Under the pieces are notes generated by a model that was given only the letters and a program-made list of their open reading frames with translations, was not told where the DNA came from and did not search any database. A DNA stretch of 35,973 nt. Origin: a virus. Taxonomy: Duplodnaviria > Heunggongvirae > Uroviricota > Caudoviricetes. How positions within the stretch are numbered: position 1 is the stretch's first letter; the number at the start of each line of letters is the position of its first letter. The stretch is taken from positions 1 to 35,973 of the IMG/VR virus record IMGVR_UViG_3300014890_000016. One strand, written 5' to 3'. Of the stretch, positions 1 to 34,815 are shown piece after piece. Position numbers and translations under genes: made by a program.

Positions 1-1005
1 TTAATCCCCCGTGGACACTGCGTGGACACTTACGCCACCTTTCAGCGGATTAAGGGCCACCGCATCCTGCAGGTAATCCGGTGCAAAATGTGCATACGCC
101 ATTGTTTGCTGAATGGTTGCGTGGCCAAGAATCTTCTGAAGCGCAATAATGTTTCCTCCGTTCATCACAAAATGGCTGGCGAACGTATGCCGCAGCACAT
201 GTGCAGCCTGACCTTTTGGCAAATCGGGCTTAACTCTTTTCAGCGCCAGGCAGAATTCCCGGTACTTCACCTCAAACAAGCTGCCTGTTTCTCTGGTTCT
301 GATCGCCTCACAAACCGCCTGCGAAATTGGCACCGTTCTCTTCCGGCCATTTTTGGTTTCAAGAAACGTCACTCGGTTATGAACTATCTGTTCACCACGG
401 AGCTTACAGGCTTCACTCCAGCGTGCCCCAGTGCTTAAACACAAAAGAGCAACACGCCAGTAATCGCCCTCCAATGTATCGAGCAATAACGCAACTTCCT
501 TCTGTGACAGGAACGCCATTTCTCGTGGAGATACATAAAGAATAGAAATTCCCCTTACCGGATGTTCTGCATCCCAAAGACCTATTTTTTTCAGCACGGT
601 AAACATTCCGGATAACCGATTCATGTACCTGTTAGCAGATGACGGTTTCAATCCATCAGCTATCTTTTGAGAACGCCACGCGATAATTTTCAGCTTATCA
701 AGATCCACAGCCTGCATATCAGCGCCAAGCTCATTGATTATGTTGCGCAGTTGTTTTCGGTCTTCTTCCGCCTTACGTCTGTGCTGGCCGTGATACATCC
801 ACCACAACTCAAGCAAATCATTTAGCGTTCGACGATCACGGTAGCCCTGTATATATTCCCGCTTTTCAGCGTTCGCCATGATGTAGCGTTCAGTGGCCAC
901 CGCTACCGATTTTTTGTCAAATACCTTACGCACGCGCTTTCCCTTGCGTCCGTTCGGCCTGATGTCCAGCAAATAACGACCATCTTCGAGCTTCTTAATC
1001 GACAT
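1..1005 (-). CDS. int: Tyrosine integrase, P2 Int-like
   Basis: Translation from the ATG at 1005 starts MSIKKLEDGRY (P2 Int starts MAIKKLDDGRY) and ends LNPLKGG..VHAVSTGD; GGAGGG Shine-Dalgarno upstream of that ATG. The track start at 1020 is a TTG upstream. Confidence 0.9.
   Translation of the reverse strand: MSIKKLEDGRYLLDIRPNGRKGKRVRKVFDKKSVAVATERYIMANAEKREYIQGYRDRRTLNDLLELWWMYHGQHRRKAEEDRKQLRNIINELGADMQAVDLDKLKIIAWRSQKIADGLKPSSANRYMNRLSGMFTVLKKIGLWDAEHPVRGISILYVSPREMAFLSQKEVALLLDTLEGDYWRVALLCLSTGARWSEACKLRGEQIVHNRVTFLETKNGRKRTVPISQAVCEAIRTRETGSLFEVKYREFCLALKRVKPDLPKGQAAHVLRHTFASHFVMNGGNIIALQKILGHATIQQTMAYAHFAPDYLQDAVALNPLKGGVSVHAVSTGD
8..35. repeat. Putative attL core, overlapping the 3' end of int
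   Basis: GTGGACACTGCGTGGACACTTACGC here resembles GTGGTCACTGTGTGGACATACGC at 34793..34815; the P2-type att core lies at the int 3' end (established). Confidence 0.4.
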
Positions 1006-1101
1006 AGCGAAGCCCTCCAATGAACCGCTTTACAATTTCTCCAGCTTCTTCCCAGCAACAGTCGGACCAGACAAATAACAGATCCAACCAGTTTTCTGGC
1101 C

Positions 1102-3813: not shown

Positions 3814-4109
3814 GCACCATCAACCACCAGGAACTACGCGAACTGGCGACAGACCTGCAACGAATGGCAACGCATCAAAAATTACTGGCGTTTCGCGCAA
3901 TGCTCTCGTCGTCTGCTGTGCTGGCACTGCTGGATGAGCTGGAGCACGCCAGAACCATGGTTCCAGCCATTCGCCTGACGCTCCATCATGAAATCGCTGA
4001 TTTCTGTGCACCACTGGGTTCACCTGGCGAACCGGAAACACCGGAAGCAATGCAGCGAGAGCTGCTGCAACGCATCGACAAGGTTTTTGATTTTTTCCTT
4101 AACCAGTAA
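3810..4109 (+). CDS. Hypothetical early protein
   Basis: 99-aa ORF translationally coupled (ATGA) to the upstream gene. Confidence 0.5.
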   Translation: MSTINHQELRELATDLQRMATHQKLLAFRAMLSSSAVLALLDELEHARTMVPAIRLTLHHEIADFCAPLGSPGEPETPEAMQRELLQRIDKVFDFFLNQ

Positions 4110-5850: not shown

Positions 5851-8673
5851 ATGACGGCAGAGTACATCAGGGACTGGCAACAACCGCGCCACGCAGTGGG
5901 GCGTGAAGGAACGGGGATCCCCGCTCCTGAATCCGCGCTTTCCTCCTGGCTGGGTGCCTACCGGGTAGAGAACGAGCGCCGCCAGGAAATGGCTGATGCG
6001 GCGTTCTCCGCCACGCCGCTGGGCAACCTGATTAATAAAAGCCTGGACGCACAGGAAAAACAGGACAAAACCATCACACTGGCAGGAGACGCCAGAAAAC
6101 AGGCACGCGGCGCGGTGGGTGAAGCCATGGTCTCGCTGCGCCTGCTGCCGTCCTATCTGCGCGATCCGCTTATTCGCCACCTCTCCTTCCTGCGCAAAAA
6201 ACAGGAAGCTGATCGCCGGAAAGGCAAAAAGAGCTGGCAGGCGGAACGCTATGCACGCGGAACCCTGCGCAAAATATTCGAACGTCTGGATCGCACTGAC
6301 GGACGCTGGCTGACACCGGGTTATCGCTCCCTTGCCGGACGCGAACGCCTGGACGATTTGCTTTACCTGCCGCAGCTCAACAAACACCAGATACAGACGC
6401 TGGCCACCATGACGGCGGCGATGTTCAGCAGCACCTTCGAAAAACTCTGCGATGGCTTTGGCGCGACCGATGGCGAACTGACCATGGATGTAACGCTGAA
6501 GGCGTATCAGATGCTGGCCCGCATGGCGTTACACCTGCACATCATGCCTCCACATTATGACGCACTGACAACAGATAAAGACCGGAGGAACGAACCGGAC
6601 ACGGAGCTGCTGCCGGGCGCAATCCTTCGCCTGACCTGTGCGGAATGGTGGAAACGCAAACTGTGGCTGTTACGTTGCGAGTGGAGAGAAGAACAACTCC
6701 GCGCCGCCTGTCTGGTTTCCAGAAAAACATCACCCTATCTGAGCCAGGACGCGTTAAGCGAGTTTCGCGCACAGCGCGAGAAAACACGCGATTTCCTGAA
6801 AAGTTTCATACTGGAAAATGAAGACGGGTTCACGATTGATCTCGAGACGGTGTATTACGCGGGAGTAAGTAACCCGGTTCACCGTAAGGCAGAAATGATG
6901 GCCACCATGAAGGGGCTGGAACTTCTGGCCGAAGCCCGTGGCGACAAAGCGGTGTTTCTTACTGTCACCTGCCCGTCAAAATACCACGCCACAACGGAGA
7001 ACGGTCATCCGAATCCCAAATGGAACGGGGCCACAATGCGCGACTCCAGCGATTACCTGGTTAACACGTTTTTTGCGGCGGTCCGCAAAAAACTGAACCG
7101 CGACGGCCTGCGCTGGTATGGCATCCGCACGGTGGAGCCTCATCATGACGGCACCGTGCACTGGCATATGATGGTCTTTGCACATCCGGAAGAAATCGAC
7201 AGCATCGTGGCCATCACCCGCGATATTGCCATTCAGGAAGACCGCCACGAGCTGGGCAATGATATTACTCCGCGCTTTAAGGCGGAGTATGTCGACGGCT
7301 CAAAAGGCACACCAACCAGCTATATCGCGACCTACATCGGAAAGAACCTGGACAGCCGCGCCGTGGATGGCATCGACCCGAAAACGGGCAAGCCACGCGT
7401 TGACCACGAAACCGGAAAATCAATGGCCGAGAGTGTGGAGCGCGCCATCGGCTGGGCGCGCCTTCACCGGGTCCGCCAGTTCCAGTTCTTTGGCATCCCC
7501 TCCCGTCAGGTGTGGCGTGAACTGCGCCGCCTTGCCAGCCAGATGGCACGCAACCCGGAAGGCCCGCAACGACTGAAGGATGACGCAATGGATGCAGTGC
7601 TCGCTGCCGCTGATGCCGGGTGTTTTGCCTCCTACATTGAAAAACAGGGCGGCGTACTTGTTCCACGCAAAGACTACCTGATTCGCACCGCCTACGACCT
7701 CGCAGATGAGCTGAACGATTACGGCGAACAGAGCGTACAGATTTACGGGATCTGGTCACCACTCATCGGGGAGTCTTCCCGTGTGTGCACACATCCGGAT
7801 AACTGGAAGCTGGTAAGACGTAAACCGGAAGCGGAAGACAGCGCCCGCGAAAATGGTTTTGACCTTCAGGGCGGCCCTGCCGCCCCTTGGACTCGTGGCA
7901 ATAACTGTCCCCGTGTACAGGAAACGGACAACAACGGGACAGAACAGCCGGAAGAACGGCCAGCACCGTGGCCGCAGCTCCCTGACGGCGTTGAAGTGAA
8001 CGAATGGATGCGCTCACTGAAACGGCACGAACGCCGGGCGCTGATGCGTTCGCTTCGTGACAAACAGGCAAAAAACAGCAGTGATGAAATGCAGAGCTGG
8101 ACACAGAGCCGCAAACAACAGCGGCCTTTGCCTGATAACCACGAGTTACTCGCTAAAGAATGGCGGGAGTCTGCTGAATCTCTCGGCCTGCATATCGGTG
8201 AACAGCAGATACTGCACCTGTTACGGGGCGGCAGTCTGTACGTTGACGGCAGCATCATTGCACCGCAGGGATTTGAAATTGTGCGCAAACCGGATACCCG
8301 CCCGGACAGCCGAATCGCGCAGCTCTGGCAGCGCCTGAGCCGTAATCACGGCGTAAGCAGCACGGAGATCCGTCATAACCCGGTCGCCAGCTATCTGGCA
8401 CAGCTGGGGGCATCAGACCCCGAAGCCGCCGCACGCCTGGCATCCACACTTCAGCAGGACCAGAACCCTATGAAAACACCCGTTACCGTGCTTTCTGACA
8501 TGCTGCGCGCCATCCGTGACGCAGAGCACGCACAGAGAATCAGTGAAACCACTGAACGCGCTCGCCGCAAAGCAGACCTGCTGCGGGGTGGCCTGACCAG
8601 TGGAAACAAAAAACAGACAGAAACGGGATTCACAAATCCCGTAAATGAGCAAAAAACGCGCCGCGATATATGA
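5851..8673 (+). CDS. A: Replication initiation endonuclease, P2 gpA-like (rolling-circle HUH nickase)
   Basis: 940 aa; HUH motif region TVHWHMMVF and tyrosine motif YIATYIGKN typical of the P2 A family; about 180 aa longer at the C-terminus than P2 A. Confidence 0.9.
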   Translation: MTAEYIRDWQQPRHAVGREGTGIPAPESALSSWLGAYRVENERRQEMADAAFSATPLGNLINKSLDAQEKQDKTITLAGDARKQARGAVGEAMVSLRLLPSYLRDPLIRHLSFLRKKQEADRRKGKKSWQAERYARGTLRKIFERLDRTDGRWLTPGYRSLAGRERLDDLLYLPQLNKHQIQTLATMTAAMFSSTFEKLCDGFGATDGELTMDVTLKAYQMLARMALHLHIMPPHYDALTTDKDRRNEPDTELLPGAILRLTCAEWWKRKLWLLRCEWREEQLRAACLVSRKTSPYLSQDALSEFRAQREKTRDFLKSFILENEDGFTIDLETVYYAGVSNPVHRKAEMMATMKGLELLAEARGDKAVFLTVTCPSKYHATTENGHPNPKWNGATMRDSSDYLVNTFFAAVRKKLNRDGLRWYGIRTVEPHHDGTVHWHMMVFAHPEEIDSIVAITRDIAIQEDRHELGNDITPRFKAEYVDGSKGTPTSYIATYIGKNLDSRAVDGIDPKTGKPRVDHETGKSMAESVERAIGWARLHRVRQFQFFGIPSRQVWRELRRLASQMARNPEGPQRLKDDAMDAVLAAADAGCFASYIEKQGGVLVPRKDYLIRTAYDLADELNDYGEQSVQIYGIWSPLIGESSRVCTHPDNWKLVRRKPEAEDSARENGFDLQGGPAAPWTRGNNCPRVQETDNNGTEQPEERPAPWPQLPDGVEVNEWMRSLKRHERRALMRSLRDKQAKNSSDEMQSWTQSRKQQRPLPDNHELLAKEWRESAESLGLHIGEQQILHLLRGGSLYVDGSIIAPQGFEIVRKPDTRPDSRIAQLWQRLSRNHGVSSTEIRHNPVASYLAQLGASDPEAAARLASTLQQDQNPMKTPVTVLSDMLRAIRDAEHAQRISETTERARRKADLLRGGLTSGNKKQTETGFTNPVNEQKTRRDI

Positions 8674-8749: not shown

Positions 8750-9709
8750 ATGAAAATTTGTATCGACGACGGCTCCACCAACATCAAGCTGGCATGGACT
8801 AAGAACGGCGAACGCCGCAACGCCATCAGCCCGAACAGCTTCAAGTCGGAATGGTCTGCGCCGTTCGGTGGCACGCAGCCCGCGAACTACATGCTTGATG
8901 GCGTGCGCTATGGTTTTGATCCGGTCAGCGATCGCTTTGTCCAGACGACCGACACGCAATACCAGTACAGCGATGTGAATGTCATTGCCATTCATCACGC
9001 GCTGGTCAAATCAGGCATCACGCCACAGGAGGTGGATGTGGTTGTCACCCTGCCACTGAGCGAGTATTTCGACACAAACGCACAGCCGGACATGGCCAAC
9101 ATCAACCGCAAAAAAGCGAACGTTATGCGCCCGGTGGAGTACCAGAACGGCGAAGCATTCACTATCCGTAACGTACGGGTTATGCCTGAATCCATTCCGG
9201 CTGGCTTTAAGGCACTGGCTGACATGAGTCCGTTTGAATCCCTGCTGATTGTGGATTTGGGCGGAACCACGCTGGATGTGGCAAAGGTTCAGGGGCAACT
9301 GGCAGGTATCAGCCAGGTGTTTTGCGATCCACACGTAGGCGTTTCCCTGATGGCCGATGCAGTACTCTCGGTGATGGCCGCTAACGGTATGCGTACCAGT
9401 CACCACATCGCCAATACCATTATCGAACATCGCCATGATGAAGCCTGGCTGCGCCAGCACATCCACAATGACACGCATTACGCCAGCCTGATGGCGGTTA
9501 TTCGTGAAAAGGAAGAAACACTGAAACAACGCGTGATCCGCGCGCTGGCGGTTTTTTCGGGTTACGGGCGGGTGATGGTTGTCGGTGGAGGGGCGGAGAT
9601 TGTAGCACCCGCTATCCGCGAAGCCTGCGGAGTTAATGCGACTTTCATCGCGGACGGGGTGCCACAGTTTGCTCTGGTTAATGGGCTGTACGCAATGGAC
9701 AAGGAGTAA
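8750..9709 (+). CDS. parM: Actin-like ATPase of the ParM/StbA family
   Basis: 319 aa; MKICIDDGSTNIKLAW, ISPNSFKSEW, QYSDVNVIAIHHAL, VMPESIPAG, IVDLGGTTLD, SGYGRVMVVGGGAE and LVNGLY align along the whole length with plasmid R1 ParM as recalled. Confidence 0.85.
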   Translation: MKICIDDGSTNIKLAWTKNGERRNAISPNSFKSEWSAPFGGTQPANYMLDGVRYGFDPVSDRFVQTTDTQYQYSDVNVIAIHHALVKSGITPQEVDVVVTLPLSEYFDTNAQPDMANINRKKANVMRPVEYQNGEAFTIRNVRVMPESIPAGFKALADMSPFESLLIVDLGGTTLDVAKVQGQLAGISQVFCDPHVGVSLMADAVLSVMAANGMRTSHHIANTIIEHRHDEAWLRQHIHNDTHYASLMAVIREKEETLKQRVIRALAVFSGYGRVMVVGGGAEIVAPAIREACGVNATFIADGVPQFALVNGLYAMDKE

Positions 9710-9713
9710 ACCA

Positions 9714-10028
9714 ATGACGACACCAACCAGACGGATAAGTTTCTATCTGAAGCCTGCGGCCGTCAAGAGTGAACAGGAGGCGTGCAATTACCTCGACAGC
9801 CTGCCAGCCTCCGAACGCAGCCGCGCGCAACGCGCGGCTTTTCTGGCCGGACTGGCTCTTATAAAACGCACCCCCGCGTTGGCGTATTCGCTGGCAGAAT
9901 GGTCAGAAGACGAAATACGGATGCCATCGCTACCAGCACAGCCTGAAAAACCGGCGCAACCAGCAGCAGACAGCGCCCCCCATATGCAGCAGGTGAAAAA
10001 GAATATTCAGGCGTTTTTCCCGAAGTGA
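9714..10028 (+). CDS. parR: ParR-like DNA-binding adaptor
   Basis: 104 aa directly after parM with AAGGAG Shine-Dalgarno; N-terminus RRISFYLKP...LDSLPASERSRAQRAAFLAGLAL parallels R1 ParR (RRTIAFKLNP...LDSIPQGERSRLNRAALTAGLAL). Confidence 0.7.
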   Translation: MTTPTRRISFYLKPAAVKSEQEACNYLDSLPASERSRAQRAAFLAGLALIKRTPALAYSLAEWSEDEIRMPSLPAQPEKPAQPAADSAPHMQQVKKNIQAFFPK

Positions 10029-10042
10029 AAACAGGAGTAACT

Positions 10043-10330
10043 ATGCCCACCATTACCAAAGAATGGTTACAACGTAAAATCACAGAGTTTAAATCGTGGC
10101 GCGAAGACATCCCGTTCGGTCTTGATGAAGACGATCACAATATGTTAATCGCACTGGAAATCGCACTTGCATCACTGGAAGCAGAGCCAGTGGCATGGAT
10201 GCACGCAAATAATCCTATTGGAATACCGGCGATAACAAGAAGTAAAGATGTTGCAGACAGCTGGCGCTCTAAGGGATGGAATGTATTGCCTCTTTATTCA
10301 CTGACCCGCTCCATCAATTTATGCCATTAA
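10043..10330 (+). CDS. Hypothetical protein
   Basis: 95-aa ORF with CAGGAG Shine-Dalgarno; no family recognised. Confidence 0.5.
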   Translation: MPTITKEWLQRKITEFKSWREDIPFGLDEDDHNMLIALEIALASLEAEPVAWMHANNPIGIPAITRSKDVADSWRSKGWNVLPLYSLTRSINLCH

Positions 10331-10341
10331 TGGAAGTAATC

Positions 10342-10701
10342 ATGATGAAAGATAATTCCGGAAGCCAGCGTGCATCAGTTGCAGTTATGGTAATGATTAA
10401 ATTTGTGAAACAGTACACCGGAAAGCCAATCTCACTCCGGCAATTAAGCAAAGAAACCGTTTCACTGTCATATCTGGAGCAAATATTCAGATATTTACGG
10501 GAAAGTAGCTTGGTAAAAGCCACACGCGGCCCGGGTGGTGGATATATCCCAACAAAAGAAAATTACAGTGTTGGTGATATTGTCCGGGCAATGAAATGTT
10601 CCGGATTATATACACAGCACGTTATTCTGGCTGCACTGGATAATATTTCTTTAACCAGCCTGCAAGAAGACACAAATTATCAGTTGTCTGCCATTGAATA
10701 A
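10342..10701 (+). CDS. Rrf2-family winged-helix transcriptional regulator, short form
   Basis: ISLRQLSKETVSLSYLEQIFRYLRESSLVKATRGPGGGY matches the Rrf2/IscR signature; no Cys cluster, so probably not Fe-S binding. Start could also be the ATG at 10330. Confidence 0.65.
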   Translation: MMKDNSGSQRASVAVMVMIKFVKQYTGKPISLRQLSKETVSLSYLEQIFRYLRESSLVKATRGPGGGYIPTKENYSVGDIVRAMKCSGLYTQHVILAALDNISLTSLQEDTNYQLSAIE

Positions 10702-10704: not shown

Positions 10705-10749
10705 AACCCGGAACGGGTGCGCAAATTCTTTGTGCGCCCGTTCCGGGTT
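10705..10749. terminator. Hairpin between convergent operons, terminator mainly for the leftward operon
   Basis: 13-bp perfect arms AACCCGGAACGGG / CCCGTTCCGGGTT; a T-rich tract follows only on the minus strand. Confidence 0.5.
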
Positions 10750-10769: not shown

Positions 10770-11027
10770 CTATCCAGCCTGCAACAACTCCAGCGCCATC
10801 TGTTTTTCTTCCGGGCGCATCCGTTCAATCAACAGCTTTAACACACCGTGATCCAGCCCGCTGGGCACCAGTGTGTGCGAGTAGGTCAGATTCATCACCC
10901 AGGTATGTCCGCACTCGAGACGGGTGCAACGGTAATACACATCAGCAAACTGATCGGTTTTCCAGGCTGTTTTCTCAATCACTGCATGTGCACCGCAGCA
11001 ATGACATCGCGCTTTCTGTCTGCGCAT
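10770..11027 (-). CDS. ogr: Ogr/Delta-family zinc-finger late transcription activator
   Basis: 85 aa from ATG at 11027 with GGAGG Shine-Dalgarno; C-x2-C, 22 residues, C-x4-C spacing identical to P2 Ogr. Confidence 0.65.
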   Translation of the reverse strand: MRRQKARCHCCGAHAVIEKTAWKTDQFADVYYRCTRLECGHTWVMNLTYSHTLVPSGLDHGVLKLLIERMRPEEKQMALELLQAG

Positions 11028-11092
11028 TTTCCACCTCCCGGAACAGCGTTTTACTGCCGCCGATTTTACCCGCTCTTTCCCCATACCGCACA

Positions 11093-12127
11093 TCACTCCA
11101 TGGGTTCATCAAAATCAAGAATAAATTTCACCTCCCCCAGTCGCCTGATATCCGGGTCACTGTTGATCCCCTCCATAATCAGACGGCGCATCGGAATAAC
11201 CTCATCCCTGTAATATGCCTCGCGGGATTTAAGTGGGTCGCCAAGCCCGGCCGTATTTGCGGGAATGATGCCTGCAAGTCCGGGTGGAAAACGGTGCGCC
11301 ACGAGCTGATCCTGAGCACTGATGGTTTTTATATTCAGGAACTCATCTTTTGTACCTGAATCCCCGATAGGGATCACCTTAACGCCTTCTTTGTCTCCGC
11401 CAGGTATATTGATAAACATGGATTTAAAATTGCCCGCCCCTTTTGAGGCCTCTATCTTTTTACGGAATTCCGCCTCGAGCTCGGGATCCATGTCCGGGTC
11501 AGTGGAATACAGGATATAACCAAGATGTGCGCCGTTCTTGTAATACTTGCGGCGAAAGCGGGTGGCATCCACATTCAGCATGGCAGATTCCATCCCGTGA
11601 ATATAATCCGGGACACCGTAAACCTGCTGTTGCGGGTCATAAATGGCCACAAACACCACTTCACCTGACGGATACACGAGATCTTCCAGTGCCGCCTGCA
11701 CAATCACCGTGCCCCCCTCGTTGTTGCGCCGCAGGTACAGAGAAGGCAACGTATGCAGGCGCACCACCCGACCAAAGCCATTACGTACTTTAAGCAACCC
11801 CATATCCCCGAATATCAGCAGATTGGTCACTGCTGCCGCCATGGCGGCGTGTGTCATACCACCACCACCCCGAAAACCCTGCATGATCATATTGACGCGC
11901 GCACGCAATACCGCGCCGTGATACGGCGCGATATTGGACAACATGGCAAGATCCATGCGCTCAATGGGCGGCGTGTACCAGCCGTTATAGCCATCCCAGA
12001 GCGAGCCGTAATAACAGCCCCATGCAGCAACCGGTTCAGGGTCACCAAATTCAATAAACGTCATTTTGCTGGCTGTTTTTTTTGCCACGCCATCGTGTAG
12101 CACGGGGGATTTTTTCTTTTTACTCAT
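11093..12127 (-). CDS. Q: Portal protein, P2 gpQ-like
   Basis: 344 aa; position and orientation as in P2, downstream of and overlapping the terminase gene. Confidence 0.85.
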   Translation of the reverse strand: MSKKKKSPVLHDGVAKKTASKMTFIEFGDPEPVAAWGCYYGSLWDGYNGWYTPPIERMDLAMLSNIAPYHGAVLRARVNMIMQGFRGGGGMTHAAMAAAVTNLLIFGDMGLLKVRNGFGRVVRLHTLPSLYLRRNNEGGTVIVQAALEDLVYPSGEVVFVAIYDPQQQVYGVPDYIHGMESAMLNVDATRFRRKYYKNGAHLGYILYSTDPDMDPELEAEFRKKIEASKGAGNFKSMFINIPGGDKEGVKVIPIGDSGTKDEFLNIKTISAQDQLVAHRFPPGLAGIIPANTAGLGDPLKSREAYYRDEVIPMRRLIMEGINSDPDIRRLGEVKFILDFDEPME

Positions 12128-13907
12128 CTGACAGGATCCATGTTGATTTGCGCTTGTGCTTATAGTTCAGGGGTTCATTACTTGCGGCATGAGCTATGGC
12201 AAAGAAGATGTCAGCGTGCCCGGTTTCTTCGCTACGTTCAGCGGTAAAAGTAACTTTATTGCCACTGTTGGTGGATTCCTGACGAATGGCCAGAAATGAT
12301 GCCGGAATATCCGTGGCTCCCTCATCCCACTCAATACGGTTGGCGTAAATCAGATCCAGCATCTTCATCACCAGGCGGTTTTTGGATTCAACGCTGTAAT
12401 GAATGGCCACTGTTTCACGGCGGGCAAATCCCTGAACCAGCTCAAAGACACCATAGCCAAGCCCGGTAACATCAATGCCGATAAACGTCATGTTATAGCG
12501 CGCCTTAATGCTGCGGATACGCTCTGCCATAAACTGGAATGACATGCTGCGCCAGTGGTGTTTTTCCAGCACGCGGAATCGTTCTGCCGCAACCAGCGGC
12601 GGTGCCAGCACCACAAACGTGGCGTTATCGCCGGAGCGCGCAGGGTCAAAGCCACCCCACACTTCACGGTTTCCAAATGGCATGGCATCTTCCGGGTGAA
12701 AATCCTCCCACGTACTGACATCAACGCCACAGCGCACGAGGTCATCGAATTTAAAGACGCTCTCTTTGTCATCCACAAACACGCACATATACAACATATT
12801 GAATGCTGTTTCGTTATATCGCTCGCGCAGCTCGTCAATGTTGGCAAGGTTAAAGCCGCCGGCAATGGCATCTTCCATTGTCACCACATAGCGCCACTGA
12901 CCATCCGGGCATTCGCGCCCGCCATCGCGCAGTTCATCAAAGGACGGGAACTCAACCCCTTTTCGTTTCGGGTCGCCTTTGCGCCATTCATCGCCAGACC
13001 AGAACGGGTAGCCCTGGTGTGTTTTGGATGACGGCGTGGAGAAGTAGGTAATGCGCCAGTGCGAGTGGGTGGCCATACCGGACGCCACTTCATTGAGGCG
13101 ACGAAAAGCGGGGATCCACAGATATTCGTCAATGTACAGGTGGCCGCTGTTTGACTGCGCCGTATTGCTGTTGGTCGCCAGAAAATACAGTTCAGCAAGA
13201 TTACTTAACTTAACCGGGTTGCCTTTAATGGGAATGCCAAATTCCGTCTGTGCAATCTTAACGATATAGGTGCGGAACACTTCGGCCTGGCGTTTTGATG
13301 CCGATAAAAATATCTGTGTGTCGCCGGTTAATACCGCATCTTCAAATGCCTCAAACGCGAAGTAATATGTCGCCCCAATCTGACGAGATTTAAGCAGGTT
13401 GCGTACACGGCGGAATTTGTTTTCACGCAGATGCAACTGATAAGCAAACAATTTTTTCGTAAACGGCTCAAAACTTTCAGCAGTCAGTCCGGAAACGTCA
13501 TTAGCTTTGCGGGGGCGCTCTTTCTTACCTGCACCTTTTTCTCCGCGTTCTTCTTTTCCATAACGACCAGACTGGGGAATATCCGCTCCCATTCGTTCAA
13601 TCTCGGCCATTCGTTCCGCGTGCTTGTTCCTGACCGACATCAGTTTGACGTGATGGCCAATCAGGCGATCGAGTTCATCGTGTTCTTCCGGCGTTTTATG
13701 ATCACGCTCCGCCAGTACAGCGAGACGACGGGCGATAACATCCTCCACGCCTTCAGTATTAAGCTGCGTGTACCACTCAAACTTTGTCGCCCAATAATAA
13801 ACAATTCGCGGGCTGTTTAGTCCGAGCTTCTTTTGTATTTCTTTTGGTGTGTGTCTTTTCAGATAGAGCGATTTTGCAGCAGCAATCACCTCATCAGAAT
13901 ACGCCAT
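12120..13907 (-). CDS. P: Terminase large subunit (ATPase), P2 gpP-like
   Basis: 595 aa; divergent from the O-N-M-L operon as in P2; Walker-type and nuclease-type regions present. Confidence 0.85.
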   Translation of the reverse strand: MAYSDEVIAAAKSLYLKRHTPKEIQKKLGLNSPRIVYYWATKFEWYTQLNTEGVEDVIARRLAVLAERDHKTPEEHDELDRLIGHHVKLMSVRNKHAERMAEIERMGADIPQSGRYGKEERGEKGAGKKERPRKANDVSGLTAESFEPFTKKLFAYQLHLRENKFRRVRNLLKSRQIGATYYFAFEAFEDAVLTGDTQIFLSASKRQAEVFRTYIVKIAQTEFGIPIKGNPVKLSNLAELYFLATNSNTAQSNSGHLYIDEYLWIPAFRRLNEVASGMATHSHWRITYFSTPSSKTHQGYPFWSGDEWRKGDPKRKGVEFPSFDELRDGGRECPDGQWRYVVTMEDAIAGGFNLANIDELRERYNETAFNMLYMCVFVDDKESVFKFDDLVRCGVDVSTWEDFHPEDAMPFGNREVWGGFDPARSGDNATFVVLAPPLVAAERFRVLEKHHWRSMSFQFMAERIRSIKARYNMTFIGIDVTGLGYGVFELVQGFARRETVAIHYSVESKNRLVMKMLDLIYANRIEWDEGATDIPASFLAIRQESTNSGNKVTFTAERSEETGHADIFFAIAHAASNEPLNYKHKRKSTWILSDE

Positions 13908-13994
13908 AAATAAACCTCACCTGCTGATGCAATTTTAATTTATGCATTTTCAGCAAAGGCTTTTTTAAAAACGAATATCGCTTTTCGGTATTTT

Positions 13995-14018
13995 TCGGAT
14001 ATATGCGCATATCCGAAA
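13995..14018. promoter_or_regulatory. Inverted repeat centred in the P/O divergent late-promoter region
   Basis: TTCGGATAT-N6-ATATCCGAA, 9-bp perfect arms, roughly 100 bp from each start codon. Confidence 0.4.
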
Positions 14019-14101
14019 GTACCGGAAATTAATCAGATGACGACATTTTTATTTCTCCGTTAAATAACGCCAGTTTAATTTTTATCAGCGGATTAATTCA
14101 G

Positions 14102-28120: not shown

Positions 28121-29172
28121 TGAGCGCGCTGTTGACGAAAGCATTTGAGAAATGGGTTGCTGAATGCGCCGCCAGTAATTTACCGGCGCGACCTGACTCC
28201 ATTGTTTTTGCACTGATGGAAAGGGAACCATCCAGAGATGATGAAGTTGTCCCCCCTGAAAAAATCACACACACGGTAAATAATCTGCGCTATGGAAAAC
28301 TGGATCCAAACAGCATTGTCTGTAGTGCCGTTGTTGCTGATAACGAGACATTCACTTACGACTGGATTTGCCTGGTCCATCAACCCAGCAACACACTCTG
28401 CGGCGTAATTAAAACCCCGGTTCGCCACAAACTGACCGGCGAAACACTTATCCGCAATTTTGCTGTTATTTATAGTGGACTGGCCCAGGCGGCACACATC
28501 ACTGTACCTCCGGAAAGCTGGCAATTGGATCTTTTTCCTGAATTAAACAAAAAAGCACCATTGCACAGCCCCTCACTCACCGGGGAACCAACTACGCCAA
28601 CTCCTCCCGAGGATGCCGCAGATACCGAAATAGCAAATGCGAAATTTGTCCGCAAGCTACTTAAAGAAATGAGCGATTCTTTATCTGCCCCTTCTGTTTC
28701 GGGTGATCCCAAAAATTTACTGAAAACACAATCTGGCGCTTTATTTGTTGATGGCGCTCACCCGATCATCCCCAAAATGCTCGTAAGCACCATGAACTCC
28801 AATCTGGATTCATTTAAAAGCCTGCCCGATGGTTCGCGTGTTTATACCCTGAAGCTGGATGTATCAAACCCCATCGGGCAATCCTCAGTTGGCGGTATCG
28901 GAATCGCTGTTTCAGCGATGATTGAGCCGCGTTATCTCTATCAGAACCAGAACCGACAGTACATTCCTGCGCAGTATTTTGTCGGCTCTGTCTCTGCAAA
29001 TACGCGAACAATCACTATCGGAATACAGGTGGTGATGCCTGATAAACCTTACTATGCACTGGATATGTCAACACTGAAAGATATTGCCGGCGCAGATGAT
29101 GGGCCGCTCCCCTGTGTTGTGGTTATAAAAACACTAGCAGGGACAACGTTGCGTCAGAACGGAATGGGATAA
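28120..29172 (+). CDS. Second tail-fibre-like protein (shared N-terminal domain, distinct C-terminus)
   Basis: 350 aa; N-terminal ~150 aa align with the H N-terminus (PARPD..VFA, LIRNFA, SWQLD); contains KKAPLHSPSLTGEPTTPTPPED...TEIANAKFV, similar to the P2 gpH collar motif. Confidence 0.55.
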   Translation: MSALLTKAFEKWVAECAASNLPARPDSIVFALMEREPSRDDEVVPPEKITHTVNNLRYGKLDPNSIVCSAVVADNETFTYDWICLVHQPSNTLCGVIKTPVRHKLTGETLIRNFAVIYSGLAQAAHITVPPESWQLDLFPELNKKAPLHSPSLTGEPTTPTPPEDAADTEIANAKFVRKLLKEMSDSLSAPSVSGDPKNLLKTQSGALFVDGAHPIIPKMLVSTMNSNLDSFKSLPDGSRVYTLKLDVSNPIGQSSVGGIGIAVSAMIEPRYLYQNQNRQYIPAQYFVGSVSANTRTITIGIQVVMPDKPYYALDMSTLKDIAGADDGPLPCVVVIKTLAGTTLRQNGMG

Positions 29173-29919: not shown

Positions 29920-30466
29920 CGGAGAAGCCATTCTGTTACGCAACATAACCGTCAGCGCCACCATGCAACTACCGGATAAAGATATGTCCGGACAGTCAAC
30001 CAGCACCACCAGTGCCCAGCAGGGAAACAAGGCCAAGGAGCTACGCGTGTCGGGTGTTATTGATTTTAACGATGAAGCCATTCTGACCCGTATTTTTCAG
30101 CTTGCAGAAGCTACAGAAAGCAATGGGGCTAAAAAAACATACCGCATCGCCAACGCTACTGCTAAAGCGATTAATATGCGACAGGGTGTTTTTTCCGGCG
30201 GCATTGATGCCACGGAGCAGCAAGGCAAGATGCACTGGCAGGTCACCTTTACTCTCAGGGAAAAATTAAGCGTGCCGGAAAAAGCATCGGCACGCAGTGG
30301 CTCACAGAAAACAATTGCAAAACAGCAGACGCAGAACGGCAGCGAACAGGCGCCAGACAAAGGGATGAATACCCAGGATGCGTTCTGGAAAAATATCAAT
30401 GATGGTATTGGCTCCGGGCTGGACTGGATTGGCATCGGGAGCGTGAAAGAGGAAGGGAAAACATGA
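29891..30466 (+). CDS. Putative tail protein (gpU position)
   Basis: 191 aa directly upstream of and ATGA-coupled to the gpD-like hub gene. By position only. Confidence 0.35.
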   Translation: MTQMIVLALDGEAILLRNITVSATMQLPDKDMSGQSTSTTSAQQGNKAKELRVSGVIDFNDEAILTRIFQLAEATESNGAKKTYRIANATAKAINMRQGVFSGGIDATEQQGKMHWQVTFTLREKLSVPEKASARSGSQKTIAKQQTQNGSEQAPDKGMNTQDAFWKNINDGIGSGLDWIGIGSVKEEGKT

Positions 30467-32160
30467 AATTAACCCAGCGCTGTATGATTAATGGTGAGCT
30501 GGCGGAAATTGCCGATATCAGCCTTGTTCTTACCCTGAATGCTGCCGGGCGCGGCTTCATTTCTGTTAATAATCTGCCCCCCCAAAAAAGCCTTGCCGGC
30601 GCAATGATACAAATTGATCTCGGCCGTAATGGTGAGGCATGGCGCTATTTCTCCGGCTACATTGAGCGCGATCAACCCGCCGAAAATGGCTCACGCCGCC
30701 TTTTTATCCGTGAAGCAGCTGCCGTGCTGGATTTTGATTTCCCCTGCTCCATGCAACATCCAACGTTACGGGATGTACTCGATAATCTGGGTAAACAAAG
30801 CGGCATCGTTTTCATCACGCCAGATGCGGATTACGTCAGCACACCGACACCTTACATCACCCACAGCGGCAGCGGAGCACAACTGCTCAGCCAGTTGGGG
30901 CGAGCATTCAGTATCAGCGATTACGTCTGGCATCCAATGCCGGACGGTTCCGTATTTGTGGGAAGCGCACCGGATTCACGGTTTGCCAGTATTACCATGC
31001 CGGATATTCCGCAACAATACACACTCGGGCAAAGCGGCGGAAACAGCATCGACATCATGTTTATGGAAACTGTGCGACCGGGCGTGAACCTTCCGGCCGG
31101 GCGCATTACCCGTGTAGCCCTCAACAACGAGAAAATGACCCTGACATGGGAACGCCTTACCGCCACGGGTAGCCCTGTTTCCAAATCACCATTACGCAGA
31201 CAGATGGAAACACAGTTCCCGGAACTGGCCAGCGGCACTCTGCATACCCGGCTGGCGCGCGTCATTGCGCCAACGGAATCTGTCACCCTGGGCGATATTG
31301 CCGACAGCTTCCGCCCACGCTACGCCGTCGATGTGCAACTGCTTGATGAGAATGGCAACGATAAAAGCGATACGCCTGTTTATCCGGCTGTACCACTCCC
31401 CGTCCCGATGGCTGGTAGCGAGGCGGGATGTTTTGCCTACCCGCCAGCAGGCACCATCGTGGAAATATCCAACATTGAAGGGCGACCGGATAAACCTGTC
31501 ATCAGGCAAATCTTACCCGCGGGCCATAACCTGCCTGATGTAAAGCCCGGCGAACAGCTGCAGCAACAGCGCGCAGAGGTGTTTCAGCGCGTCACGACTG
31601 ACGGAAGCTGGTACAGAGAAACTGACCAGCAAATCAGGGAGCATTCAGCCAGGCGAACCATTAACAGCGATCAGGAAGAACGCACAACAACAACCAGAAC
31701 AACAACAGTCCAGGCAAACGACATAACCAGTGTTCTTGGTACCAGTAAGCTGATGACAGGCCAGACAGAACACCTTACTACCGGCAATTATGCGATCGCA
31801 GCCGGTGAGCATATCCAGATGGTAGCGCAGAATTTGCTGACTCAACTCAAAGGGGCGATATCCACTATTGAGCATGACCTCACCGAAAACGTGGGAGGCC
31901 GCAGAACATGCAGGGCAGACAGCGGTCTGGAATTTACCGCCCCGACAGTATTTATTGGTCGCGGCGGCTCGCGGGAAAAGTCCGGACTTAACCTGCTGAC
32001 GTTGCTGATCGATATTCTGGACCTGGTTCAGTTGCTGGCCACACATACAGCAAACCACACCCATAGCAACACTGGCACGCCAATGAACAGCAGCGAATTT
32101 GCAGCAGATGCCCTGCAGGCGACGAGCCTGCGCGAAAAATACGGCGACATTATCGCCTGA
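30463..32160 (+). CDS. D: Baseplate hub protein, gpD-like, with C-terminal extension
   Basis: 565 aa; N-terminal region resembles the late-control-D family pattern; C-terminal LLATHTANHTHSNTGTP is His-rich; last gene of the late operon, followed by a terminator. Confidence 0.5.
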   Translation: MKLTQRCMINGELAEIADISLVLTLNAAGRGFISVNNLPPQKSLAGAMIQIDLGRNGEAWRYFSGYIERDQPAENGSRRLFIREAAAVLDFDFPCSMQHPTLRDVLDNLGKQSGIVFITPDADYVSTPTPYITHSGSGAQLLSQLGRAFSISDYVWHPMPDGSVFVGSAPDSRFASITMPDIPQQYTLGQSGGNSIDIMFMETVRPGVNLPAGRITRVALNNEKMTLTWERLTATGSPVSKSPLRRQMETQFPELASGTLHTRLARVIAPTESVTLGDIADSFRPRYAVDVQLLDENGNDKSDTPVYPAVPLPVPMAGSEAGCFAYPPAGTIVEISNIEGRPDKPVIRQILPAGHNLPDVKPGEQLQQQRAEVFQRVTTDGSWYRETDQQIREHSARRTINSDQEERTTTTRTTTVQANDITSVLGTSKLMTGQTEHLTTGNYAIAAGEHIQMVAQNLLTQLKGAISTIEHDLTENVGGRRTCRADSGLEFTAPTVFIGRGGSREKSGLNLLTLLIDILDLVQLLATHTANHTHSNTGTPMNSSEFAADALQATSLREKYGDIIA

Positions 32161-32200
32161 ACACCAGACATAAAAGCCACATAAACGCCCCATCACGCAA

Positions 32201-32226
32201 CGCACGGTCCCGGCCGTGCGTTTTCC
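32201..32226 (+). terminator. Rho-independent terminator ending the late operon
   Basis: CGCACGG-loop-CCGTGCG hairpin followed by TTTT. Confidence 0.5.
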
Positions 32227-32702
32227 TATCCACCACCTGATTAATGCGTTCTGCGTGCCATTCTGGCGCTGTATGCACACACCGCGTAAACGGTGTGACG
32301 TAAAGCGTGAGGTGACGTAAACCGCGCTACCCCCTCCAACCCGCGGGTTTCGTGTCGAAACAGTTTTTCAGTTTTCTGCCGTGCAAAAATGACCGCCAGC
32401 CCGCGCAGTAACTAAGGGAAAAGCGAAGATCTGAAATTTCACGCCGGGAAATTTTTTGCAGTTTTCAGAGAGATTTTTACGATCCCATAAATGGCAGGAG
32501 AAATAAAACAGTATGATATTAAAAGAATTTTCATGCTTTACGCGAGACGAAAAACGATCACGAAAGGATCGCATCAAACAACCATCAAACAAAGAAGCCA
32601 GACGCGGCGCGGACTGCGTAAAATCAAGAGCCAGAATCAAACTGAAAAAAGGATCAATTCCGTGCTCTGATCGCACATGACGATCTACGCAGTAACAGGA
32701 CG

Positions 32703-32728
32703 AAAAAAACCGGCGCGAACGCCGGCGG
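32703..32728 (-). terminator. Rho-independent terminator for a leftward transcript
   Basis: On the minus strand CCGCCGGCG-TTCG-CGCCGG followed by seven T; no minus-strand CDS ends here, so it would terminate a short RNA. Confidence 0.45.
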
Positions 32729-32806
32729 AAGCGTGTATCAAATACGTAATTGGGTAATGTCTAAGGTCGGGAATTTTACATCAGAAAACTGACAAGTCTC
32801 AACGGA

Positions 32807-32836
32807 TTGAAACAAGGGAAAAAACCAGGCTAGAAT
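32807..32836 (+). promoter_or_regulatory. Candidate sigma70 promoter upstream of the hok-like ORF
   Basis: TTGAAA, 18-bp spacer, TAGAAT; about 150 nt upstream of the toxin start codon. Confidence 0.35.
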
Positions 32837-32988
32837 TCGCACGGGTGCCTTTCGGCTGATGGCTGGAGGGAATACCCGAAGGCCGGATGTGGAAAGGCCC
32901 CGGAAAACATTTTTGTTTAACCGAGGCCCTAACCATCTACCCTAGACAAGTGATAGGTTAGCGCCTCCCTGAAAAAGGAGCAAGCGCT

Positions 32989-33129
32989 ATGTCGCAAAAA
33001 TCGCTTACGGCCATTACGTTCTGCGTAACGGCAATCCTCATCATCTGGATGCTGCACGGTTCACTGTGTGAAATACGGATGAGCTTCTGGGGAGCGGAGT
33101 TTGCGGCGTTCTTACAGTGTAAGCAGTAA
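32989..33129 (+). CDS. hok: Hok/Gef-family type I toxin peptide (46 aa)
   Basis: MSQKSLTAITFCVTAILIIWMLHGSLCEIRMSFWGAEFAAFLQCKQ: one TM helix then the SLCEIR motif and an AAFL.CK C-terminus as in HokA/PndA; GGAG Shine-Dalgarno. Below the ORF-track cutoff. Confidence 0.7.
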   Translation: MSQKSLTAITFCVTAILIIWMLHGSLCEIRMSFWGAEFAAFLQCKQ

Positions 33130-33214
33130 GGAAACCGCGACGGGGGAGCAATCCCCCGTCAATCGGTTGCCAGGGTAAGGTCGATAAGGCACCCTATCTC
33201 GCAAACCTGAATGC

Positions 33215-33246
33215 AAAAAGCCCGCAGGATTAATCGCGGGCTTTTT
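33215..33246. terminator. Bidirectional Rho-independent terminator
   Basis: AAAAA-GCCCGC-loop-GCGGGC-TTTTT; ends the hok transcript and the convergent minus-strand gene. Confidence 0.55.
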
Positions 33247-33275
33247 ATTTCCAGAGAGGGTGGTTGGCTTACCGA

Positions 33276-33713
33276 TTATTCTTCATTTTCCTTTGACGTT
33301 ATTACCACAGTAGCCAGTTTATCAATCAGGCGCTCACACGCATCAACATCTTTGAGGTTTCTTAATTTGAGCTTTGCAGTTTTAGGCTCATCATCTCTGG
33401 TACAAAGGTGTAGCTCAACTTCAACATCATTCCTGTTTAACAACCCCATAATAACCCCTGCAAATTTTTTCGCCCGTGAGAGCAATTCGAACATAACACT
33501 AAGCATATCGGGTGCATTCGCAGAGAAGCAAGTCACGCGACCTATATCAAATCCATTATTTTGAAAATACTCCTCTATTGAAGAGGAAAGCTCTGAAGGG
33601 CATGTAATCCTGACACTTGCAAATCGGGACTGATGTAATGGTGTTCCCTTTAAATATTGCACTTGAAGCCTCCGCATTAAAACTACAGCACAAGTGAGGC
33701 CAAACAGCCCCAT
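33276..33713 (-). CDS. Hypothetical protein
   Basis: About 145-aa ORF divergent from com; start uncertain (TTG 33719, ATG 33713 or ATG 33677); no family recognised. Confidence 0.45.
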   Translation of the reverse strand: MGLFGLTCAVVLMRRLQVQYLKGTPLHQSRFASVRITCPSELSSSIEEYFQNNGFDIGRVTCFSANAPDMLSVMFELLSRAKKFAGVIMGLLNRNDVEVELHLCTRDDEPKTAKLKLRNLKDVDACERLIDKLATVVITSKENEE

Positions 33714-33732
33714 GAACAAAATAGAAAACGCA

Positions 33733-33766
33733 GATCGATAATATAAAACCGATCGATAAAATCGAT
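33733..33766. promoter_or_regulatory. Three ATCGAT palindromes, two containing GATC, in a divergent promoter region
   Basis: ATCGAT at 33733, 33752 and 33761 between the leftward ORF and the com-methylase operon. Confidence 0.35.
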
Positions 33767-33814
33767 CAATTTGTTATCATACCGGCAGCAGTAACCACAT
33801 AAGAGGTGCCGCAA

Positions 33815-34012
33815 ATGACGCAAAATGTACGATGCAAAAATTGCAACAAACTACTTGCCCGCGCCTCATTTCACTACATTGAAATAAAATGTCCGCGCTG
33901 CAAAACACTTAACCAGATAACGAGAGCCATTGAGCACCCCACACACATGAGGAGCTATGACCGTGGGGATCGCAATCCAGCACCAACCAGCACATACACC
34001 GGAACACACTAA
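33815..34012 (+). CDS. com: Com-like zinc-finger translational regulator
   Basis: MTQNVRCKNCNKLLARASFHYIEIKCPRCKTL matches Mu Com (MKSIRCKNCNKLLFKADSFDHIEIRCPRCKRH); AAGAGG Shine-Dalgarno; 3' end overlaps the methylase gene as com overlaps mom in Mu. Confidence 0.7.
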   Translation: MTQNVRCKNCNKLLARASFHYIEIKCPRCKTLNQITRAIEHPTHMRSYDRGDRNPAPTSTYTGTH

Positions 34013-34748: not shown

Positions 34749-34792
34749 GACAAAGCCCGCAATGTTGCGGGCTTACTCTACCTCTCGAAAAT

Positions 34793-34815
34793 GTGGTCAC
34801 TGTGTGGACATACGC
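34793..34815. repeat. Putative attR core, imperfect copy of the int-end repeat
   Basis: GTGGTCACTGTGTGGACATACGC versus 11..35; about 21 of 23 positions match, then a 2-nt indel before TACGC; lies between the methylase terminator hairpin and the flk-like gene. Confidence 0.4.

What the first reader, a model, noticed from the sequence alone, without database searches (positions are those of the whole stretch)
10770..11092. Ogr-type activator placed at the end of the terminase-portal operon
In P2 ogr lies at the far right end next to attP, and the cos site lies just beyond the 3' end of Q. Here an Ogr/Delta-type zinc finger is the last gene of the leftward P-Q operon. The 65-bp Q-ogr gap contains GGGGAAAG on the minus strand, which matches the centre of the P2 cohesive end; this is a weak cue only. 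The canonical 19-nt P2 cos sequence was not found.
Basis: partly seen in the sequence, partly recalled or inferred. Interest (0 to 1): 0.45.

Follow-up and report, generated by a model that had tools for sequence, protein, structure and literature searches.

The report
Ogr late-gene activator after portal gene
This is the ordinary late-gene activator (an Ogr/Delta zinc-finger protein) of an HP1/K139/ESSI-2-type P2-like prophage; sitting just after the portal gene is the normal place for it in that lineage, and the phage's DNA-packaging (cos) site lies about 21 kb away, not in the gap beside it.

Summary
An 85-aa Ogr/Delta zinc-finger gene (10770-11027, minus strand) lies 65 bp downstream of portal gene Q. 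It is the last gene before a strong terminator hairpin (10705-10749).

It is not unusual. RefSeq already annotates the same gene in the same context in about 40 complete E. coli chromosomes. The order P, Q, zinc finger recurs in ESSI-2, SI7, YenM_324, ev015, phiO18P, K139 and a Pseudomonas phage. HP1 has an unannotated copy. The arrangement is stated in print for K139 and Smhb1.

The cos cue fails. GGGGAAAG occurs once in the window, as chance predicts, and is not conserved even among close E. coli relatives. The site matches the P2 cos at 12 of 19 positions, like about 30 other sites.

The likely cos lies at about 32249-32391. That stretch aligns with the ESSI-2 genome termini and the HP1 cos junction. 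A satellite-like E. coli island carries a 92% identical copy.

What the gap does conserve is G-N-TAAAAT (11063-11068), invariant in 12 of 12 relatives. It is the same -10 hexamer, at the same distance from the start codon, as P2's annotated ogr promoter. The regulatory design therefore matches P2: late operon, own promoter, ogr, shared terminator. Here it is attached to the P-Q operon instead of FETUD.

A lineage-conserved dyad (13993-14018) midway between P and O is the probable activator site.

The parts
10770..11027 (-). ogr-like gene: 85-aa Ogr/Delta zinc-finger late-gene activator with the cysteine pattern C8-X2-C11-X22-C34-X4-C39
   Evidence: Pfam PF04606 E=1.3e-12. PHROG 603 E=2.4e-28. 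The four Cys are invariant in a 9-sequence alignment that includes P2 Ogr. 24% identity to P2 Ogr over 55 aa, E=6e-5. RefSeq names it 'ogr/Delta-like zinc finger family protein'.
11028..11092 (-). 65-bp Q-ogr gap. No terminator. Holds the probable ogr promoter and the ribosome-binding site GGAGGTG (11032-11038). GGGGAAAG at 11075-11082 is a non-conserved chance match.
   Evidence: RNA fold z-score +0.33.
11063..11068 (-). TAAAAT, a -10-like hexamer preceded by an invariant G at -14, 35 nt upstream of the ogr ATG: probable P_ogr
   Evidence: Invariant in 12/12 aligned relatives (E. coli x4, E. albertii, Edwardsiella x2, ev015, ESSI-2, YenM_324, SI7). These include a satellite-borne copy with no Q gene upstream. 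P2's annotated ogr -10 is TAAAATG, 33 nt before the ATG.
10705..10749 (-). 21-bp-stem hairpin followed by a U-run on the minus strand: terminator of the P-Q-ogr transcript, shared with the convergent Rrf2 gene
   Evidence: the repeat finder I1, 90% complementary arms. MFE -39.5 kcal/mol, z-score -6.0. Flagged by the terminator scan.
11093..12127 (-). portal gene Q
   Evidence: Pfam Phage_portal E=4.7e-14. RefSeq 'phage portal protein'.
12120..13907 (-). large terminase gene P
   Evidence: Pfam Terminase_6N, Terminase_6C and Terminase_5.
13993..14018 (.). Perfect dyad TTTCGGATAT-N6-ATATCCGAAA, 97-98 nt from both the P and O start codons, with extra half-sites at 13983 and 14020. Probable binding site of the Ogr-like activator for the divergent late promoters.
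   Evidence: the repeat finder I3. Unique in the window. The same dyad lies in the P/O intergenic region of K139 (0 mismatches), YenM_324 (2), ESSI-2 (3), HP1 (3) and E. coli EC42405 (0). No P2-type TGT-N12-ACA is present there.
32249..32391 (+). Probable cos region: three GACGTAAA-type repeats, a C-rich core CTACCCCCTCCAACC (about 32327-32341) and TTTTTCAG (32364-32371), beginning 89 bp after the last baseplate gene (30463-32160; core about 167 bp after it)
   Evidence: Aligns with the ESSI-2 terminal junction (15-nt terminal repeat, 198 bp past the orthologous gene) and the HP1 cosR/cosL junction (192 bp past orf35). P2 has TTTTTTCAG at a similar distance from its cohesive end. A 143-bp block is 91.6% identical in a satellite-like island of E. 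coli STEC307.

Best explanation
The gene encodes the late-gene transcriptional activator of a P2-like (Peduoviridae) prophage. The prophage's late module is of the HP1/K139/ESSI-2 type.

Proposed mechanism; the anatomy is shown, the function is inferred:
1. After induction, ogr is first transcribed from its own weak promoter in the Q-ogr gap. The -10 element TAAAAT is at 11063-11068, with G at -14 and a poor -35.
2. The zinc-finger protein binds the GGATAT-N6-ATATCC dyad midway between P and O. Written as GGA-N12-TCC, this has the same 18-bp geometry as P2's TGT-N12-ACA.
3. Binding switches on both divergent late promoters.
4. Leftward late transcription through P and Q meets no terminator and reads into ogr. 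It stops at the hairpin at 10705-10749. This gives positive feedback.

This is the circuit annotated for P2: late FETUD operon, P_ogr in an 81-bp gap, ogr, then a terminator shared by ogr and the F operon. Here the circuit is attached to the P-Q operon.

The cos site is not here. In this lineage it lies after the last tail or baseplate gene, towards attP, at about 32.3 kb in the window.
For: Family membership: Pfam and PHROG hits, and four invariant Cys with the P2 spacing.

Context: Q and P lie upstream on the same strand. The gap has no terminator and a strong one follows ogr.

Conserved synteny of P, Q and the zinc finger: ESSI-2, SI7, K139, YenM_324, phiO18P, ev015, Pseudomonas UFJF_PfPro, Edwardsiella, E. 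albertii and about 40 E. coli genomes. HP1 has an unannotated copy. The arrangement is published for K139 and Smhb1 (PMC8537503).

Promoter: G-N-TAAAAT is invariant in 12/12 relatives while the rest of the gap diverges, and it is kept in a satellite copy with unrelated upstream DNA. P2's annotated ogr -10 is TAAAATG at the same distance from the ATG, and the annotated P2 terminator serves both the ogr transcript and the F operon.

Activator site: the dyad is single-copy and conserved in the P/O region of five phages.

cos elsewhere: and PMC2771037.
Against: No experiment supports any step.
- The generic sigma-70 scan did not call a promoter in the gap, because the -35 is poor.
- Assigning the dyad to the Ogr-like protein is an inference from position and conservation only. 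The P2-type TGT-N12-ACA motif is absent.
- Identity to P2 Ogr is only 24%.
- What keeps P_ogr silent in the lysogen is unknown.
- In E. coli, ESSI-2, YenM_324 and SI7 the reading frame upstream of the ATG stays open back to Q's stop codon. A longer protein is therefore not excluded in those phages.
Confidence: 0.8

Rival explanations
1. The Q-ogr gap is (or contains) the cos site, as in P2, where cos lies just beyond the 3' end of Q. The packaged genome would then have ogr at one end and Q at the other.
For: In P2, cosL is 187 bp from the Q stop codon. The gap contains GGGGAAAG, the centre of the P2 cohesive end. The gap has a conserved block.
Against: - The match to the P2 19-mer is 12/19, no better than about 30 other sites, and GGGGAAAG occurs at chance frequency.
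- GGGGAAAG varies among close E. coli relatives, and only G-N-TAAAAT is invariant.
- HP1, whose cos was mapped experimentally, has cos next to attP, 192 bp past orf35 (PMC2771037).
- The ESSI-2 record ends carry a 15-nt terminal repeat 198 bp past the orthologous gene. The window has the homologous block at 32249-32391.
- A satellite-like island shares that block at 92% identity but shares nothing from the Q-ogr gap except GGGTAAAATC.
Confidence: 0.03
2. The true product is a 107-108-aa protein that starts at the ATG or GTG overlapping Q's stop codon (TGATG, 11091-11096). It would be translationally coupled to Q and carry a basic N-terminal extension. The gap would then be coding, not regulatory.
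For: The frame is open from Q's stop to the ATG at 11027 in the window, other E. coli copies, ESSI-2, YenM_324, ev015 and SI7. Spacing differences there are multiples of 3. GenBank annotates the long form in ESSI-2 and YenM_324.
Against: - The Edwardsiella orthologues (81-82% aa identity) have in-frame stops, and their spacing differs by 1 nt. phiO18P also has stops.
- The satellite copy has unrelated upstream DNA yet keeps TAAAAT.
- A strong Shine-Dalgarno sequence precedes the internal ATG.
- The Pfam domain starts at the internal ATG region, and P2 Ogr starts 3 residues before the first Cys.
- RefSeq aa.
- The gap appears to diverge faster than the ogr coding sequence between E. coli copies; this was judged by eye from the alignment and not computed.
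Confidence: 0.07
3. ogr has no promoter of its own and is expressed only as the distal gene of the late P-Q operon. The conserved TAAAAT would be something else, for example a protein-binding site or an RNA element.
For: The generic promoter scan found nothing in the gap. The -35 region (GTGCGG) is far from consensus.
Against: - An activator that is made only from a promoter it must itself activate cannot start the circuit.
- The hexamer matches P2's annotated ogr -10 in sequence and in distance to the ATG.
- -10-like hexamers (TATGAT, TAAGAT, TATAAT) sit 30-40 nt upstream of the ATG in K139, phiO18P and HP1.
- The satellite copy has no late operon upstream but keeps the element.
Confidence: 0.08

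Closest known systems
P2 Ogr (also 186 B, P4 Delta, PSP3 Pag): the founding Ogr/Delta zinc-finger late activators
   Same: - Same Pfam family.
- Identical cysteine pattern C-X2-C-X22-C-X4-C.
- Small size.
- Same circuit design: last gene after a late operon, its own promoter in a short gap with -10 TAAAAT about 33-35 nt before the ATG, then a shared terminator.
   Different: - Only 24% identity.
- 13 residues longer, with a conserved helical C-terminal tail (..EEKQMALELL..) that P2 Ogr lacks.
- Attached to the P-Q operon instead of FETUD next to attP.
- The late control region has GGATAT-N6-ATATCC instead of TGT-N12-ACA, and apparently a single bidirectional site rather than four promoters.
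K139 orf13, Smhb1, phiO18P gp19, ESSI-2 gp32, YenM_324 gp11 and SI7 gp38: Ogr homologues of HP1-like and related Peduoviridae
   Same: - Same subfamily (39-48% identity; Edwardsiella prophage copies about 81-84%).
- Same position between the portal gene and the replication or cargo region.
- Same conserved motif ECGHT[FW]VMNLT[FY]SHTL.PS.
- Same P/O dyad, seen in K139, ESSI-2 and YenM_324; the P/O region was not sampled for Smhb1, phiO18P or SI7 (PMC8537503).
   Different: - K139 has an extra small orf14 between Q and the zinc finger.
- K139 and phiO18P have a LexA-box-like CTGT-N8-ACAG in the gap; the window does not.
- In the window, P88-type ParM/StbB plus Rrf2 cargo lies between ogr and the replication gene A.
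HP1-type cos placement (HP1, HP2, phiCTX)
   Same: The window's cos-like block lies just past the last baseplate gene on the attP side, as in HP1. It has repeats, a C-rich cleavage region and TTTTTCAG about 30 nt beyond (PMC2771037).
   Different: The termini of this particular phage have not been mapped. Cargo genes (methylase, GemA-like) lie between the cos-like block and the prophage end.

Membership tests
Ogr/Delta zinc-finger late activators (Pfam PF04606) | Sequence match to the family profile above the curated threshold | tested here: met
   PF04606 E=1.3e-12, 47.9 bits against a gathering score of 26.3, covering the full 47-position profile. PHROG 603 E=2.4e-28. No NCBIfam model matches.
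Ogr/Delta zinc-finger late activators (Pfam PF04606) | Four zinc-ligand cysteines, C-X2-C-X22-C-X4-C | tested here: met
   C8, C11, C34 and C39 are the only invariant columns in a 9-sequence alignment with P2 Ogr. The spacing is identical to P2 C4/C7/C30/C35.
Ogr/Delta zinc-finger late activators (Pfam PF04606) | Encoded by a P2-like phage or its satellite, alongside P2-type late genes (Q, P, O, N, M, L) | tested here: met
   Pfam hits to Phage_portal, Terminase_6N/6C/5, Phage_GPO, Phage_GPA and Phage_Cox. RefSeq annotation of a 97.6% identical locus.
Ogr/Delta zinc-finger late activators (Pfam PF04606) | Late promoters carry a dyad about 55 bp upstream of the start site that the activator binds (TGT-N12-ACA in P2, 186 and P4) | tested here: inconclusive
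   The P2-type motif is absent from 13908-14101, and the 10 sites in the window are at chance level. A different lineage-conserved dyad with the same 18-bp span (GGA-N12-TCC) lies midway between P and O. Binding was not tested.
Ogr/Delta zinc-finger late activators (Pfam PF04606) | Binds zinc and activates sigma-70 late promoters through the RNA polymerase alpha C-terminal domain | not testable with these tools
   Needs biochemistry and genetics.
P2-type cos site adjacent to Q | 19-nt cohesive-end sequence GGCGAGGCGGGGAAAGCAC or a close variant | tested here: not met
   0 matches with up to 3 mismatches. The gap site matches 12/19, like about 30 other sites.
P2-type cos site adjacent to Q | Conservation of the candidate cleavage sequence among relatives, and presence in cognate satellites | tested here: not met
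   GGGGAAAG is variable among E. coli copies. The satellite-like island instead shares the 32249-32391 block.
HP1-type cos site (next to attP, after the last baseplate gene) | Positional and sequence homology to mapped or recorded termini | tested here: met
   Window 32296-32420 aligns with the ESSI-2 terminal-repeat junction and the HP1 cosR/cosL junction. TTTTTCAG is invariant and the C-rich core is shared. The distance to the orf35 homologue is comparable: about 167 bp against 192 and 198 bp.
HP1-type cos site (next to attP, after the last baseplate gene) | Physical cohesive ends at this position in virion DNA | not testable with these tools
   Requires virion DNA.

The most novel reading that the evidence does not exclude
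The Ogr subfamily of this lineage has changed its DNA specificity from P2's TGT-N12-ACA to GGATAT-N6-ATATCC. It would drive the whole late regulon, about 20 kb, from one bidirectional control site between P and O, and feed back on itself through P-Q read-through. A capsid-encoding, P4-like satellite in E. coli (STEC307 island) has captured this lineage's ogr (81% nt identity, with the same TAAAAT promoter element) and its cos (92% identity). That would define a helper-satellite pair distinct from P2/P4.
Probability: 0.45. Interest if true: 0.35.

Novelty: already known. Interest (0 to 1): 0.14.

Why it matters
It matters little as a discovery. The gene is already annotated as an Ogr/Delta-like zinc-finger protein in identical context in RefSeq. 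The portal-adjacent position is the documented norm for K139-type phages.

The useful outcomes are corrective:
- P2 is not a safe template for where ogr and cos lie in HP1/ESSI-2-type prophages of E. coli.
- The ogr promoter design (-10 TAAAAT, own promoter plus late read-through, shared terminator) appears conserved from P2 to this lineage even though the gene has moved.
- The probable cos and the probable activator-binding dyad of this prophage type are now located and can be tested directly.

Tried and rejected
- P2 cos 19-mer search with up to 3 mismatches: none found. A relaxed scan gave only chance-level matches.
- P2-type Ogr box TGT-N12-ACA: 10 sites against 8.7 expected, none in the P/O region.
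- A mis-spaced dyad pattern returned nothing, not even the dyad itself, so it was my error. Corrected.
- The generic sigma-70 scan called no promoter in the gap. I relied on phylogenetic footprinting instead.
- N-terminally extended Ogr (107-108 aa): considered because the frame is open in several phages. Rejected on the in-frame stops in Edwardsiella and phiO18P.
- LexA control of ogr: a CTGT-N8-ACAG box is present in K139 and phiO18P but not in the window's gap.
- PDB sequence search: only insignificant zinc-ribbon hits to RPB9 and TFIIS-like chains (E >= 0.23).
- NCBIfam: no model.
- The K139 (2002) and HP1 (1996) genome papers were not available in the library. The search for YenM_324 found nothing.
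- I did not use the large protein-database searches or structure prediction. The family assignment was already unambiguous.

Full report
**What is there**

The window is a P2-like (Peduoviridae) prophage. From left to right it carries:
- an integrase (1-1020, minus strand), an HTH repressor, Cox and early genes;
- the replication endonuclease gene A (5851-8673);
- a P88-type ParM/StbB partition pair, a small ORF and an Rrf2-family regulator (all plus strand);
- convergently on the minus strand, an 85-aa zinc-finger gene (10770-11027), portal Q (11093-12127) and large terminase P (12120-13907);
- a 194-bp divergent region, then O, N, M, L and an HP1-type tail module on the plus strand.

The zinc-finger ORF matches Pfam Ogr_Delta (E=1.3e-12, above the curated cutoff) and PHROG 603 (E=2.4e-28). 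Its four cysteines, C8-X2-C11-X22-C34-X4-C39, are the only invariant columns in an alignment with P2 Ogr and seven other homologues. Their spacing is exactly that of P2.

The Q-ogr gap is 65 bp and has no significant RNA structure (z = +0.33). Immediately after ogr there is a 21-bp-stem hairpin followed by a U-run (z = -6.0).

**Is the placement unusual?**

It is unusual only relative to P2.
- A 97.6% identical locus lies in 36 complete E. coli chromosomes. The ogr-Q junction is in about 42-69 of 5426 genomes. RefSeq already labels the gene 'ogr/Delta-like zinc finger family protein'.
- tblastn finds homologues in 130 phage records.
- Wherever I looked in the HP1/K139/ESSI-2/phiO18P branch, the order is terminase, portal, zinc finger. 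This holds for ESSI-2, SI7, K139, YenM_324, phiO18P, ev015 and Pseudomonas UFJF_PfPro. It also holds for E. albertii and Edwardsiella prophages.
- HP1 itself has an unannotated Ogr-like reading frame just downstream of Q.
- The Smhb1 paper states that in K139 and Smhb1 the ogr homologue lies between the portal gene and the replication endonuclease gene (PMC8537503).
- In a Burkholderia phage the gene sits in the early region instead. Its position varies across the family.

**The cos cue**

- GGGGAAAG occurs once in the window, which is the chance expectation.
- The surrounding 19-mer matches the P2 cos at 12/19 positions, like about 30 other sites. No P2 cos is present with up to 3 mismatches.
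- In an alignment of 12 related gaps the octamer is not conserved even among E. coli copies: GCGAAAAG, GGATAAGG and GGCAAAGA.

The cos site is more likely elsewhere, for these reasons.
- HP1's mapped cohesive ends lie next to attP, 192 bp past orf35. [quoted passage not shown]
- The ESSI-2 record begins and ends with the same 15 nt (CTACACCGCACCCGC), 198 bp past the orf35 homologue. This pattern is expected when a cohesive end is written at both termini.
- The window has the homologous block downstream of its orf35 homologue (30463-32160). It contains GACGTAAA-type repeats, a C-rich core at about 32327-32341 and TTTTTCAG at 32364-32371. The TTTTTCAG element is also seen at a similar offset from the ends in P2, HP1 and ESSI-2.
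- Independent support comes from a satellite-like island in E. coli STEC307, which carries an integrase, a toprim primase, a P2-family capsid gene, Icd and an ogr/Delta-like gene. It has a 143-bp block 91.6% identical to window 32249-32391, with 100% identity across the core. P4 likewise carries the P2 cos (established knowledge).

**What the gap does contain**

The only invariant element is G-N-TAAAAT (window 11063-11068, minus strand), 32-38 nt upstream of the start codon. It is present in all 12 relatives. One of these is the STEC307 satellite copy, whose upstream DNA is otherwise unrelated and has no Q gene.

The annotated P2 ogr promoter has -10 TAAAATG, 33 nt before the ATG. It lies in an 81-bp gap after the last gene (D) of the late FETUD operon. 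A terminator follows that is annotated as serving both the ogr transcript and the F operon.

K139, phiO18P and HP1 have -10-like hexamers at 30-40 nt upstream.

I conclude that the gap most likely holds P_ogr. This is an inference.

The alternative, that the gap encodes an N-terminal extension translationally coupled to Q, is not supported. The Edwardsiella and phiO18P copies have in-frame stops, and a strong Shine-Dalgarno sequence precedes the internal ATG.

**Probable target site**

The P/O intergenic region has a perfect dyad, TTTCGGATAT-N6-ATATCCGAAA (13993-14018). Its centre is 97-98 nt from both start codons, and further half-sites lie one helical turn out.

It is single-copy in the window. 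The same dyad recurs in the P/O region of K139 (0 mismatches), EC42405 (0), YenM_324 (2), ESSI-2 (3) and HP1 (3).

No P2-type TGT-N12-ACA is present there. Read as GGA-N12-TCC, the dyad has the same 18-bp geometry as the P2 box. Assigning it to the Ogr-like protein is an inference from position and conservation.

**Mechanism**

Shown by the sequence:
- the family membership;
- the synteny;
- the absence of a terminator in the gap and the presence of one after ogr;
- the conserved hexamer and the conserved dyad.

Inferred:
1. A weak promoter of ogr's own starts expression.
2. The protein activates the divergent late promoters through the dyad.
3. Late P-Q transcription reads into ogr and gives positive feedback.

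This is the same logic as in P2, attached to a different late operon.

**Verdict**

The feature is already known and annotated. Interest is low.

Noticed in passing
L023/L026 (E. coli STEC307, NZ_CP091018.1, about 1603.7-1613.9 kb): A satellite-like island about 10 kb long. It encodes an HTH regulator, a P2-family major capsid protein, an Icd-like protein, a toprim primase, an integrase, an ogr/Delta-like gene (81% nt identity to the window's ogr, with the same GGGTAAAATC upstream element) and Hok/Gef. It also has a 143-bp block 92% identical to the window's putative cos. It looks like a P4-style, capsid-encoding satellite of this HP1/ESSI-2-type helper lineage.
   Followed up: partly
L012 (HP1, NC_001697) 10447-10650, minus strand: HP1 has an unannotated Ogr-like reading frame directly downstream of portal Q (tblastn E=2e-8). 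The first CxxC (CTVC) lies in a different frame from the rest. The record therefore has either a frameshift or a sequencing error in this gene.
   Followed up: partly
L004 (K139) about 3914-3929; L006 (phiO18P) about 2917-2932: The portal-ogr gap of K139 and phiO18P carries a canonical LexA-box-like sequence, CTGTAyAAAAACACAG. It sits immediately upstream of a -10-like hexamer (TATGAT or TAAGAT). HP1 has CTGTACAAAAAGCCAT followed by TGATATAAT. This suggests direct SOS control of the late activator in those phages. It is absent from the window's clade.
   Followed up: no
window 13908-14101: The whole P/O intergenic region is mirror-symmetric around about 14006. The inner dyad is at 13993-14018, extra half-sites TTTCGGTA and TACCGGAAA flank it, and outer arms lie at 13923-13938 and 14074-14089. 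The sequence TCAGATGACGA that contains the O start codon is duplicated 65 bp upstream (14033-14043).
   Followed up: partly
window 8750-10701: A plasmid-type partition pair (ParM 8750-9709 and StbB/Plasmid_stab_B ending at 10028), a small ORF and an Rrf2-family regulator lie between replication gene A and ogr. The ParM/StbB part is 95-98% identical to phage P88-type (Xuanwuvirus) phages. The prophage is therefore a mosaic of a P88-like early region and an ESSI-2/HP1-like late region.
   Followed up: partly
window 32161-35973: Beyond the putative cos lie cargo genes that differ from those in E. coli EC42405. The window has an unknown ORF (33211-33564), a DNA methylase (33957-34748) and a GemA-like protein (34978 to the window end). 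EC42405 has a YafO toxin and an ATP-dependent nuclease. This looks like a variable cargo hotspot between cos and attR.
   Followed up: no
L016 (ESSI-2, NC_047854), positions 1-15 and 28751-28765: The record starts and ends with the same 15 nt (GCGGGTGCGGTGTAG on the record's plus strand). This is consistent with a cohesive end written at both termini. It is not annotated as cos in the record.
   Followed up: partly
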